From: Escherichia coli
GTDB lineage: Bacteria; Pseudomonadota; Gammaproteobacteria; Enterobacterales; Enterobacteriaceae
NCBI RefSeq assembly: GCF_965641715.1
Contig: NZ_OZ282453.1
Reading direction: 5' to 3' (one strand)
DNA: 64,000 nt
A program made the position numbers. Shown one piece after another: positions 41,501-44,500 of this stretch; within the stretch, counting starts at the first letter, position 1, and every line of letters begins with the position of its first letter.

Positions 41501-44500
41501 TGGCCTGCGTCTCGTTCCCGACTTGCCCGCTGGCGATGGCGGAAGCGGAGCGTTTCCTGCCGTCTTTTATCGACAACATCGATAATTTAATGGCGAAACA
41601 TGGTGTCAGCGATGAGCATATCGTGATGCGTGTAACAGGCTGCCCGAACGGTTGTGGTCGCGCGATGCTGGCGGAAGTGGGCCTGGTGGGTAAAGCGCCG
41701 GGTCGCTACAACCTGCATCTTGGCGGCAACCGTATTGGGACACGTATCCCACGGATGTATAAAGAAAACATCACCGAGCCGGAAATCCTGGCGTCGCTTG
41801 ATGAACTGATAGGGCGCTGGGCGAAAGAGCGCGAAGCGGGTGAAGGCTTCGGCGACTTTACGGTGCGTGCGGGCATCATTCGCCCGGTGCTCGATCCGGC
41901 GCGCGATTTGTGGGATTAACCATCAGCCCGGTCTTGTAGGCCTGATAAGACGTGTGAGCGTCGCATCAGGCAAGGCAAACAGTGAGGAATCTATGTCCAA
42001 ACTCGATCTAAACGCCCTGAACGAACTGCCGAAGGTGGATCGCATTCTGGCGCTGGCGGAAACTAACGCCCAACTGGAAAAACTGGATGCTGAAGGCCGC
42101 GTAGCCTGGGCGCTGGATAATCTGCCCGGTGAATATGTGCTTTCTTCCAGCTTCGGCATTCAGGCGGCGGTGAGCCTGCATCTGGTGAATCAGATTCGCC
42201 CGGATATTACAGTGATCCTCACCGATACCGGTTACTTGTTCCCGGAAACCTACCGCTTTATTGACGAGTTAACGGACAAACTGAAGCTCAACCTGAAAGT
42301 GTACCGTGCTACCGAAAGCGCAGCCTGGCAGGAAGCACGCTACGGAAAACTGTGGGAACAGGGCGTTGAAGGCATTGAAAAGTACAATGACATCAACAAA
42401 GTCGAACCGATGAACCGGGCGCTGAAAGAACTTAACGCGCAAACGTGGTTTGCTGGCCTGCGCCGCGAACAATCCGGCAGCCGCGCCAATTTACCGGTGC
42501 TGGCAATTCAGCGTGGCGTATTTAAAGTGCTGCCGATTATCGACTGGGATAACCGAACGATATATCAGTATCTGCAAAAGCATGGCCTGAAATATCACCC
42601 ATTATGGGACGAAGGATATTTATCGGTGGGCGATACCCATACAACCCGTAAATGGGAACCCGGCATGGCGGAAGAAGAAACGCGTTTCTTTGGCTTAAAA
42701 AGGGAATGTGGGTTACACGAAGGGTAAATATTGCCGGATAAATTAAACGCCTCTGTCAGAAATGATGGGGGCGTTTTTATTTTGCGAGCAGTATTCCTGA
42801 TTTTAAACGTGAACGCCGCTGGAAGAATTATCAGGTATAGAATGGCGTCGGGTGCTTGAGGCTGTCTGGCGTTAAGCATTCGCGAGGTTCCAGATGGACA
42901 AAAGCCCCAGGCGATATTTCTATCAACCTGAGGCCAGCGTTCGAACCTAAGCAATTCGGATGTTAGTCTCTTCTTTGCAGGGAGGCAAGACATGTGTATA
43001 TCACTGTAATTCGATATTTATGAGCAGCATCGAAAAATAGCCCGCTGATATCATCGATAATACTAAAAAAACAGGGAGGCTATTAATGGAACCTTTTAAA
43101 TATATATGCCATTACTGGGGAAAATCCTCAAAAAGCCTGACGAAAGGAAATGATATTCATCTGTTAATTTATCATTGCCTTGATGTTGCTGCTGTTGCAG
43201 ATTGCTGGTGGGATCAATCAGTCGTACTGCAAAATACTTTTTGCCGAAATGAAATGCTATCAAAACAGAGGGTGAAGGCCTGGCTGTTATTTTTCATTGC
43301 TCTTCATGATATTGGAAAGTTTGATATACGATTCCAATATAAATCAGCAGAAAGTTGGCTGAAATTAAATCCTGCAACGCCATCACTTAATGGTCCATCA
43401 ACACAAATGTGCCGTAAATTTAATCATGGTGCAGCCGGTCTGTATTGGTTTAACCAGGATTCACTTTCAGAGCAATCTCCCGGGGATTTTTTCAGTTTTT
43501 TTGATGCCGCTCCTCATCCTTATGAGTCCTGGTTTCCATGGGTAGAGGCCGTTACAGGACATCATGGTTTTATATTACATTCCCAGGATCAAGATAAGTC
43601 GCGTTGGGAAATGCCAGCTTCTCTGGCATCTTATGCTGCGCAAGATAAACAGGCTCGTGAGGAGTGGATATCTGTACTCGAAGCATTATTTTTAACGCCA
43701 GCCGGGTTATCTATAAACGATATACCACCTGATTGTTCATCACTGTTAGCAGGTTTTTGCTCGCTTGCTGACTGGTTAGGTTCCTGGACCACAACGGATA
43801 CCTTTCTTTTCAAAGAAGATGCACCTTCAGGAATACAAGCGCTAAGAACATATTTTCAGGATAGACAGCAGGATGCGTGTCGGGTACTGGCGCTGAGTGG
43901 CCTTGTATCAAATAAGCGTCGTTATGACGGTGTACATGCCTTACTGGACAATGGCTATCAACCAAGACAATTACAGGTGTTGGTCGATGCTCTTCCTACA
44001 GCTCCCGGGCTGACGGTGATTGAGGCACCTACGGGATCAGGTAAAACCGAAACAGCGCTGGCCTATGCCTGGAAACTTATTGACCAACAACTTGCGGAGA
44101 GTGTTATTTTTGCCCTCCCTACACAAGCTACTGCAAATGCAATGCTCAGCAGAATGGAAGCGAACGCGAGCCGTTTATTTACCTCCCCAAATCTTATTCT
44201 TGCTCATGGTAATTCACGTTTTAACCACCTTTTTCAATCAATAAAATCACGCGCATTTACTGAGCAGGGGCAAGAAGAAGCGTGGGTTCAGTGTTGTCAG
44301 TGGTTGTCACAAAGCAATAAGAAAGTGTTTCTTGGGCAAATCGGCGTTTGCACTATTGATCAGGTGTTGATATCGGTATTGCCAGTTAAACACCGCTTTA
44401 TCCGTGGTTTGGGAATTGGTCGAAGTGTTTTAATTGTTGATGAAGTTCATGCTTACGACACCTATATGAACGGCTTGCTGGAGGCAGTGCTCAAGGCTCA

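What the first reader, a model, noticed from the sequence alone, without database searches (positions are those of the whole stretch)
42728..43085. cysH-cas3 intergenic region: 358 bp with no convincing ORF
After the cysH terminator-like hairpin (aacgcctctgtcagaaatgatgggggcgtt + T-run, about 42748-42785) there are about 300 bp before the cas3 RBS (cagggagg). I recall a small antisense RNA being annotated in this interval in K-12, but I cannot confirm it from sequence. I looked for a Hok-like small hydrophobic ORF and found none; the 132-aa minus-strand ORF (42595-42993) overlaps cysH and looks spurious.
Basis: inference. Interest (0 to 1): 0.3.

Follow-up and report, generated by a model that had tools for sequence, protein, structure and literature searches.

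The report
Orphan SokX antitoxin beside cas3
The "empty" gap between cysH and cas3 holds the remnant of a known toxin-antitoxin locus (hokX/sokX): the small antisense RNA gene sokX survives, and the toxin gene was lost where the K-12-type CRISPR-Cas genes begin, as already annotated and published.

Summary
cysH ends at 42727, cas3 starts at 43086, and the 358 bp between them have no credible protein gene. The interval is fully explained:

- **cysH terminator:** 42745-42785.
- **hok leader:** a full-length Rfam "sok" (RF01794) hit at 42850-43006, 102.6 bits, E=7e-24. The model runs in the hok-mRNA sense, so this is the hok promoter and leader.
- **sokX:** the real antisense RNA lies on the minus strand at 42952->42894. 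It has its own promoter (TTGCCT-17-TAACAT) and a terminator hairpin, and corresponds to K-12 sokX (b4701).
- **Breakpoint:** homology to the intact allele stops right after the hok ATG (42992-42994).
- **cas3 promoter segment:** the next 91 bp belong to the K-12-type (E2) cas module. They carry the published CRP footprint and a cas3 promoter.

Of 5,426 complete E. coli genomes, 4,212 keep an intact 50-aa HokX at this spot and 1,175 carry this truncated junction. No Hok coding sequence exists anywhere in the window.

All of this is already known from the K-12 annotation, Almendros 2014, and papers from 2020 and 2025. SokX is most likely a constitutively made orphan antitoxin with no toxin left to control. 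A role in cas3 control is unexcluded but unsupported.

The parts
42745..42785 (+). cysH intrinsic terminator: stem 42745-42776, 4-nt loop, T-run TTTTTATTTT to 42783
   Evidence: Terminator scan. RNA fold -19.6 kcal/mol, z=-4.73. Nearly invariant in six strains, one substitution in the 3' arm in AR_0104.
42786..42849 (+). Variable spacer carrying the weak hokX promoter: -10 TAGAAT at 42838-42843, no good -35
   Evidence: The -10 aligns with the -10 regions of K-12 hokC, hokB and hokE, and the position is confirmed. The consensus scan finds no plus-strand promoter. The spacer is the most polymorphic part, 13 variable sites in 64 nt among 5 E2 haplotypes. The promoter assignment is inference.
42850..42994 (+). 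Remnant of the hokX mRNA leader: 5' tac element GGGTGCTTGAGG, Sok target region, mok-like ATG at 42960, hok SD GGGAGG at 42980-42985, hok ATG at 42992-42994
   Evidence: Rfam RF01794 full-length hit 42850-43006, 102.6 bits, E=7e-24. The model is hok-sense. The leader is 97-99% identical to leaders in strains with intact hokX and homologous to the hokB, hokC and hokE leaders.
42894..42952 (-). sokX, a 59-nt antisense RNA: 5' single-stranded tail of about 17 nt, then a GC-rich hairpin (42935->42904) and UUUUG
   Evidence: Coordinates transferred from the K-12 annotation of sokX, 2887353..2887411, through the gap-free alignment. Fold -22.7 kcal/mol, z=-3.57. Same architecture as the annotated SokB, SokC and SokE. 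The hairpin is conserved across paralogs, 14 pairs with 1 compensatory change.
42960..42988 (-). sokX promoter: -35 TTGCCT (42988->42983), 17-bp spacer, -10 TAACAT (42965->42960), +1 G at 42952
   Evidence: Read from the sequence, positions confirmed. The -35 core GCAA is invariant among hokX, hokB, hokC and hokE. There are 0 variable sites in 42960-42994 among 5 E2 haplotypes. The scan's strict threshold did not flag it. Function is inferred.
42992..43009 (+). Residual 5-codon ORF (ATG TGT ATA TCA CTG TAA) at the former hok start. The breakpoint between hokX-derived and cas-E2-linked DNA lies between 42994 and 42995
   Evidence: Alignment with hokX-intact strains diverges immediately after the ATG. 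BLAST matches of hokX-intact genomes end at 42994.
42995..43085 (+). cas-E2-linked 91-bp segment with the cas3 promoter region: CRP core TATGAN6TCGAA at 43019-43034, footprint to 43047, candidate -10 GATAAT at 43056-43061, SD at 43074-43079
   Evidence: The sequence matches the CRP footprint ATGAGCAGN7AAATAGCCCGCTG published for MG1655 cas3 (PMC7019758); positions. GC falls from about 0.50 to about 0.35-0.39 here. The segment is present only in the 1,175 genomes with this junction. The class II geometry (CRP centre -41.5 from a TSS near 43068) is my inference.
43086..45752 (+). cas3 (K-12/E2 variant, 888 aa), the right-hand neighbour
   Evidence: ORF list. Annotated as cas3 in matching genomes.
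42595..42993 (-). 132-aa ORF, judged spurious
   Evidence: No Pfam match. It runs antisense through the cysH 3' end, the terminator and sokX. Indels of +2 and -1 nt in AR_0104 break its frame. It is not annotated in any genome inspected.

Best explanation
The interval is a truncated allele of the chromosomal type I toxin-antitoxin locus hokX/sokX, sitting between the cysH terminator and the cas3 promoter. In most E. coli, a weak promoter downstream of cysH makes a hok mRNA whose 5' end pairs with its 3' end. The mRNA encodes a 50-aa Hok/Gef membrane toxin. A roughly 59-nt antisense RNA, SokX, is made from the opposite strand inside the leader. SokX pairs with the leader and blocks toxin translation. 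In this window, as in K-12, everything from the codon after the hok ATG onward has been replaced by the AT-rich left end of the K-12-type (E2) cas module. That removes the toxin ORF, the 3' fold-back element and the terminator. The E2 segment brings its own CRP-activated cas3 promoter. What remains is the hok promoter and leader plus a complete sokX gene (promoter, transcript, terminator). SokX is therefore an orphan antitoxin. It is probably still transcribed constitutively and pairs only with the leftover leader, with no toxin to control. Shown here: the homology, the breakpoint, the intact sokX architecture, the absence of any hok ORF, and the population distribution. Inferred: promoter activity in this strain, and that the remnant currently has no function.
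For: RF01794 hits at full length, 102.6 bits, E=7e-24. The model's orientation is hok-sense. K-12 annotates sokX at the homologous minus-strand position, and K-12 and the window align without gaps. Intact alleles exist in two contexts: cysH-hok-cas3(E1) and cysH-hok-iap. Their 50-aa protein matches PF01848 at E=5.7e-10, and the full-length mRNA folds with 5'-3' closure, z=-3.6. The breakpoint falls right after the hok ATG. The hok CDS and 3' part are absent from the whole window. 4,212 of 5,426 genomes have intact hokX and 1,175 have this junction. The SokX fold and size match SokB, SokC and SokE. The promoter motifs are located and invariant. The CRP footprint sequence lies in the 91-bp E2 part. 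The literature agrees. The hok sok system is present in all strains except those with E2 (PMC3903273). Some strains carry only sokX, like K-12 (PMC12736100). The gene in the cysH-iap region is named hokX (PMC7232551). SokX is detected in all conditions tested in K-12. SokX overexpression gave no phenotype in the biofilm and motility screen. sokX is naturally disrupted by IS150 in the E2 strain PE15, whose cas3 is intact.
Against: I could reach no transcription data for this strain or for the leader strand, so promoter activity and RNA ends rest on the K-12 annotation and on motifs. The sokX promoter, hok SD and Sok hairpin are invariant or nearly so among E2 haplotypes while the flanks vary at about 20%. 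That could hint at retained function. However, the same polymorphisms are shared with hokX-intact strains, so the pattern may simply be inherited through recombination.
Confidence: 0.9

Rival explanations
1. The remnant has been co-opted to control cas3. Transcripts from the hok promoter read through the leader into cas3 as a 236-nt 5' UTR. SokX pairing then triggers RNase III cleavage, which lowers cas3 expression from upstream transcription or insulates cas3 from it.
For: The leader and cas3 are co-oriented, and no terminator-like site lies between 42786 and 43150 on the plus strand. Loss of the 3' fold-back partner should leave the leader open to SokX. The sokX promoter and hairpin are invariant or nearly so in E2 haplotypes. 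Cas3 level limits immunity in K-12 (PMC4782391).
Against: cas3 has its own CRP-dependent promoter inside the E2-specific 91 bp. The hok promoter has no recognisable -35. An E2 strain with IS150 inside sokX keeps an intact cas3, and about 74 of the 1,175 junction genomes appear to lack an uninterrupted leader/sokX region, judged by comparing two separate searches with PE15 as the one checked case. No paper in the library links sokX to cas3 regulation. The conservation pattern is shared with hokX-intact strains.
Confidence: 0.06
2. SokX acts in trans as a spare antitoxin for paralogous or incoming hok mRNAs (hokB, hokE, plasmid hok), that is, as an anti-addiction module.
For: SokX is 78% identical to SokB (46 of 59) and shares the hairpin with all Sok RNAs. 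Full-length duplex energies with the hokB and hokE leaders are substantial, -68 to -79 kcal/mol.
Against: The 5' tail that starts pairing is the most divergent part. Against hokB it has mismatches and a 1-nt indel, leaving at most about 6 contiguous matches. Cognate duplexes are far stronger, -117 to -128 kcal/mol. True plasmid hok/sok is too diverged to be found by blastn. The tail is also polymorphic within the species.
Confidence: 0.03
3. The interval encodes an unrecognised small protein: the 132-aa minus-strand ORF, or the 26-, 36- or 42-aa plus-strand ORFs.
For: These ORFs exist mechanically. A strong SD (GGGAGG, 6 nt before the ATG) precedes the 5-codon residual ORF.
Against: None has a Pfam match. 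Indels between strains break the frames. The 26-aa frame exists only because of the junction. Nothing is annotated here in K-12 or in the other genomes apart from sokX.
Confidence: 0.01

Closest known systems
sokX (b4701) of E. coli K-12 MG1655, in the cysH-cas3 intergenic region
   Same: Same locus, same neighbours, same junction and same 59-nt span. 57 of 59 nt are identical.
   Different: Two substitutions in the 5' tail (42948 and 42951) and one at 42959 between +1 and the -10. Nothing structural differs.
Intact hokX/sokX locus downstream of cysH, in E1-cas and cas-less E. coli such as TUM13867 and APEC O1
   Same: Promoter, leader, sokX gene, hok SD and ATG are 91-99% identical.
   Different: The intact allele continues into a 50-aa Hok/Gef ORF, a 3' fold-back element and a terminator. 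All of these are missing here.
K-12 chromosomal hok/sok paralogs hokB/sokB, hokC/sokC, hokE/sokE, and plasmid R1 hok/sok
   Same: Same leader family (RF01794 at 84-118 bits in all). Same Sok size and shape, with a conserved tac element and Sok hairpin.
   Different: Sok sequence identity is only 65-78%, the recognition tail differs, and those loci keep a hok ORF. The mok-like frame at hokX is only 12 codons, against 55-69 for mokB and mokC. R1 details are from my own knowledge.
K-12 hokA/sokA disrupted by IS150, and hokC and hokE flanked by IS186
   Same: Another chromosomal hok locus inactivated by a rearrangement. IS150 also hits sokX in strain PE15.
   Different: Here the inactivating event is replacement of the toxin ORF by the cas-E2 module, not an IS insertion.

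Membership tests
hok/sok type I toxin-antitoxin locus (Rfam RF01794 leader/antisense region) | Covariance-model match above the gathering score over the whole model | tested here: met
   102.6 bits against a gathering score of 59, model positions 1-157 of 157, E=7e-24. It is one of only two Rfam gathering-level hits in the window, with CsrB.
hok/sok type I toxin-antitoxin locus (Rfam RF01794 leader/antisense region) | Hok/Gef toxin ORF (PF01848) downstream of the leader | tested here: not met
   No ORF matches Pfam. tblastn with 7 Hok peptides gives nothing below E=0.2 in 64 kb. Only the ATG remains. The window is therefore a remnant of such a locus, not a complete one.
hok/sok type I toxin-antitoxin locus (Rfam RF01794 leader/antisense region) | 3' fold-back (fbi) element pairing with the 5' tac, and a hok mRNA terminator | tested here: not met
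   The 3' 350 bp of the intact allele has no match anywhere in the window. In the intact allele the 5'-3' closure is predicted, z=-3.6.
Sok antisense RNA (sokX) | Cis-encoded on the strand opposite the hok leader, overlapping the region upstream of the hok start | tested here: met
   42952->42894 on the minus strand lies inside the leader 42850-42994. The strand logic was checked on K-12 hokC/sokC.
Sok antisense RNA (sokX) | Own sigma-70 promoter within the hok SD/mok region | tested here: inconclusive
   TTGCCT-17-TAACAT is correctly placed 7 nt upstream of the annotated +1. It is conserved in paralogs and invariant in E2 haplotypes. It scores 8 of 12 and fell below the scan's threshold. Activity was not measured.
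Sok antisense RNA (sokX) | About 55-65 nt, with a single-stranded 5' tail and a GC-rich terminator hairpin | tested here: met
   59 nt, fold -22.7 kcal/mol, z=-3.57. Same shape as SokB, SokC and SokE. 14 conserved pairs.
Sok antisense RNA (sokX) | The RNA is actually expressed | not testable with these tools
   Literature on K-12 only: detected in all conditions tested (bioRxiv 10.1101/2024.06.20.599902) and seen in Ribo-seq libraries (PMC7580957).
Sok antisense RNA (sokX) | Synteny with K-12 sokX (between cysH and cas3-E2) | tested here: met
Class II CRP-activated promoter (cas3) | CRP site overlapping the -35 position (centre near -41.5) with a -10 hexamer downstream | tested here: inconclusive
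   The sequence is identical to the published CRP footprint (positions). GATAAT at 43056-43061 gives the -41.5 geometry only if the TSS is near 43068, and no TSS data were obtainable.

The most novel reading that the evidence does not exclude
In the roughly one fifth of E. coli that carry the K-12-type cas module, the leftover hok promoter and leader act as an upstream 5' UTR of cas3, and SokX acts as a cis-antisense brake or insulator on cas3 transcripts through RNase III. A toxin-antitoxin relic would then be wired into control of the limiting CRISPR nuclease. A related reading concerns the breakpoint. It sits only 6 bp beyond the sokX -35 because only recombinants that kept the antitoxin survived loss of the toxin locus.
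Probability: 0.06. Interest if true: 0.5.

Novelty: already known. Interest (0 to 1): 0.15.

Why it matters
For annotation, it shows that the interval is not empty and not new. It is sokX plus a hok leader stump, with the cysH terminator on one side and the cas3 promoter on the other. It also exposes a practical trap: Rfam's "sok" model is oriented along the hok mRNA, so automated hits land on the wrong strand and are about 157 nt long rather than 59. Biologically it is a clean example of a toxin-antitoxin locus decapitated by exchange of a CRISPR-Cas module, with the antitoxin left as an orphan. This matters only modestly unless SokX proves to influence cas3.

Tried and rejected
**Searches that gave nothing**
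- **TSS evidence:** the Thomason 2015 dRNA-seq paper is not held. The Cappable-seq supplements contain no coordinates for this region. The cap on papers was reached before I could try Conway 2014. There is therefore no direct TSS evidence for the leader or for cas3.
- **Reviews:** the Fozo 2008 review is not held.
- **Origin of the 91-bp E2 segment:** a scan of 100,044 species genomes with a 20-mer from the CRP site found only four chance matches in unrelated MAGs. It did not even find E. coli, so its representative genome presumably lacks this cas variant. The donor context remains unknown.
- **Plasmid hok/sok:** a blastn search returned mostly chromosomes mislabelled as plasmids and nothing R1-like.

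**Ideas rejected**
- **Weak Rfam hits on the terminator** (ctRNA_p42d, PyrG leader, PyrR, Spot 42, RalA): all are far below their gathering scores and are explained by a generic hairpin plus T-run.
- **A protein-coding reading of the 132-aa or the small ORFs**.
- **Selection on sokX in E2 strains:** the conservation pattern among five haplotypes cannot be separated from polymorphism shared with hokX-intact strains.

Full report
**1. The observation**

The hairpin after cysH is a textbook intrinsic terminator:
- The stem is 42745-42776 (14 pairs), followed by TTTTTATTTT.
- It folds at -19.6 kcal/mol, z=-4.7 against shuffles.

The RBS CAGGGAGG sits at 43072-43079. The 132-aa minus-strand ORF (42595-42993) exists but has no family match. 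Its frame is broken by +2 and -1 nt indels in another strain.

**2. What is there**

A covariance-model scan of 42300-43500 gave one strong hit: Rfam RF01794 "sok", model positions 1-157 of 157, at 42850-43006 on the plus strand. It scored 102.6 bits against a gathering score of 59, E=7e-24. It is one of only two gathering-level hits in the whole window; the other is CsrB.

The consensus of that model reads like the 5' end of hok mRNA. I checked its orientation on annotated K-12 loci. At hokC the hit lies on the hokC strand, opposite the annotated sokC, and the same holds for hokB and hokE. The plus-strand hit therefore marks the hok mRNA leader, and the Sok RNA proper must be on the minus strand.

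K-12 MG1655 annotates ncRNA sokX (b4701) at 2887353..2887411, antisense to cas3 and cysH. K-12 and the window align without gaps, so this maps to 42952->42894 on the minus strand.

That 59-nt RNA has a single-stranded 5' tail of about 17 nt and a GC-rich hairpin followed by UUUUG. It folds at -22.7 kcal/mol, z=-3.6. It has the same size and shape as the annotated SokB, SokC and SokE, and the hairpin is conserved across paralogs.

Upstream on the minus strand I read a promoter: TTGCCT (42988->42983), a 17-bp spacer, then TAACAT (42965->42960), 7 nt before the annotated +1. The -35 core is invariant among the four hok loci. At 8 of 12 matches it fell below the consensus scanner's threshold, so its activity is inferred.

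**3. Why there is no toxin**

A BLAST search of the interval against 5,426 complete E. coli genomes showed two classes:
- About 1,100 genomes match all of it.
- The rest match only 42786-42994 and carry an annotated "Hok/Gef family protein" immediately afterwards.

Three arrangements exist:

| Arrangement | Example |
|---|---|
| cysH - hok - cas3 (other I-E variant) | TUM13867 |
| cysH - hok - iap (no cas genes) | APEC O1 |
| cysH - leader/sokX - cas3 (K-12 variant) | NCM3722 and the window |

The alignment shows identity through the hok Shine-Dalgarno (GGGAGG, 42980-42985) and the hok ATG (42992-42994), then complete divergence from 42995. The intact allele continues into a 50-aa protein that matches PF01848. 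It then has a 3' region whose end pairs with the 5' end of the mRNA in the predicted fold, z=-3.6. That closure is the hallmark of hok mRNAs.

In the window the ATG is followed by four codons and a stop (42992-43009). The missing 350 bp are nowhere else in the 64 kb. tblastn with seven Hok peptides finds nothing, while the positive control gives 1e-30 to 1e-6.

Junction-specific probes give firm counts:
- Intact hokX is present in 4,212 of 5,426 genomes.
- This truncated junction is present in 1,175.

**4. The right-hand 91 bp**

From 42995 the GC content drops from about 0.50 to about 0.35-0.39, and the sequence occurs only with the K-12-type cas3. It contains, letter for letter, the CRP footprint reported for the MG1655 cas3 promoter: ATGAGCAG-N7-AAATAGCCCGCTG at 43020-47, with core TATGAN6TCGAA at 43019-34 (PMC7019758; positions).

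A GATAAT hexamer at 43056-61 would place the CRP site at -41.5 from a start near 43068, which is a class II arrangement. This is my inference, and I could obtain no TSS data. On this reading cas3 has its own promoter and does not need the hok promoter.

**5. How it most likely works**

The interval breaks down as follows:
- the cysH terminator;
- a weak hok promoter (-10 TAGAAT at 42838-43, no clear -35);
- a 145-nt hok leader stump;
- a complete sokX gene on the opposite strand;
- the cas3 promoter.

SokX is reported as detected under all conditions tested in K-12, and its overexpression gave no phenotype in a biofilm and motility screen. With the toxin ORF gone, SokX can only pair with the leftover leader. 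The simplest reading is an orphan antitoxin, a relic.

Natural disruption supports dispensability. Strain PE15 has IS150 inside the Sok hairpin (about 42924-42930) with cas3 intact. Comparing the two searches, about 74 of the 1,175 junction genomes appear to lack an uninterrupted leader/sokX region; PE15 is the one case I checked.

**6. Rivals**

- **Co-option for cas3 control.** No terminator lies between the hok promoter and cas3. Hok-promoter transcripts could therefore enter cas3, and SokX could cleave them off. Nothing supports this beyond geometry. The independent CRP promoter, the poor hok promoter and the IS-disrupted strains argue against it.
- **Trans action on paralogous hok mRNAs.** SokX is 78% identical to SokB. 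However, the recognition tail is the most divergent part, with mismatches and an indel.
- **A hidden protein.** This has no support.

Among five junction haplotypes the sokX promoter and hok SD (35 nt) are invariant. The spacer and the Sok tail vary at about 20 per 100 nt. The same variants occur in hokX-intact strains, so this reflects the species-wide pool and recombination, not demonstrable selection in junction strains.

**7. Comparison with what is known**

Everything here is already described:
- sokX is annotated in K-12.
- Almendros et al. 2014 reported that the hok sok system downstream of cysH is present in all strains except those with the E2 (K-12) cas variant (PMC3903273).
- A 2020 paper names the cysH-iap gene hokX (PMC7232551).
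- A 2025 survey states that 90% of urinary isolates have hok plus sokX and that the rest have only sokX, like K-12 (PMC12736100).

My analysis adds detail:
- the exact breakpoint, right after the hok ATG and 6 bp beyond the sokX -35;
- counts in 5,426 genomes;
- the orientation caveat for the Rfam model;
- the proposed class II geometry of the cas3 promoter.

**8. Verdict**

The feature is real and already known. Interest is low (0.15). The only unexcluded novel reading is SokX or leader control of cas3, or an addiction-shaped breakpoint, at about 6%.

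Noticed in passing
window 42850-43006 (+); L005 602-754 (-): Rfam RF01794 'sok' is modelled in the hok-mRNA sense and is 157 nt long. Automated annotation from it puts 'sok' on the wrong strand and makes it nearly three times too long. The 152-nt 'sok_15/sokX' entry in an EHEC RNA-seq table looks like this artefact.
   Followed up: yes
L012 (strain PE15) about 1061-2501 = window about 42924-42930; L007 734 onward; L005 1-432; L008 808 onward; L017 3212-4246: hok/sok loci attract insertion sequences. IS150 sits inside the sokX hairpin in PE15 and next to hokA in K-12. IS186 flanks hokC and hokE in K-12. An IS3-family remnant separates the leader from hokX in RM13322.
   Followed up: partly
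window 42936-42959 and 42786-42849: Polymorphism is concentrated in the SokX 5' recognition tail (5 variable sites in 24 nt) and in the spacer upstream of the hok -10 (13 in 64 nt). The Sok hairpin, the sokX promoter and the hok SD are invariant or nearly so. The same variants occur in strains with and without hokX, which implies recombination across the leader.
   Followed up: partly
window 42978-42986 and 43072-43080: The 9-mer CAGGGAGGC forms both the hok and the cas3 Shine-Dalgarno contexts, 94 nt apart. This is probably a coincidence between similar ribosome-binding sites. It is not at the breakpoint.
   Followed up: no
window 2662-3021 (+): A full-length CsrB RNA gene (RF00018, 384 bits).
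   Followed up: no
L009 3516-3809 (Klebsiella pneumoniae CP125156.1, filed as a 5.4-Mb 'plasmid'): A hok locus with a leader 84% identical and a Hok protein 86% identical to hokX lies next to mutS, not cysH. The record and several other 'plasmid' hits are clearly chromosomes mislabelled in the plasmid collection.
   Followed up: partly
L001 4175-4213 (intact allele); window 42960-43040: The mok-like frame at hokX is only 12 codons and stops in ATGCTGA, overlapping the hok ATG. mokB and mokC have 55-69 codons. In the window the junction extends this frame to 26 codons, ending inside the CRP site.
   Followed up: partly
L006 477-545 and L007 501-572 (K-12): K-12 annotates small proteins YncP and YsaE overlapping the 3' ends of hokB and hokA on the opposite strand. 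Nothing equivalent can exist here because the hokX 3' end is deleted.
   Followed up: no
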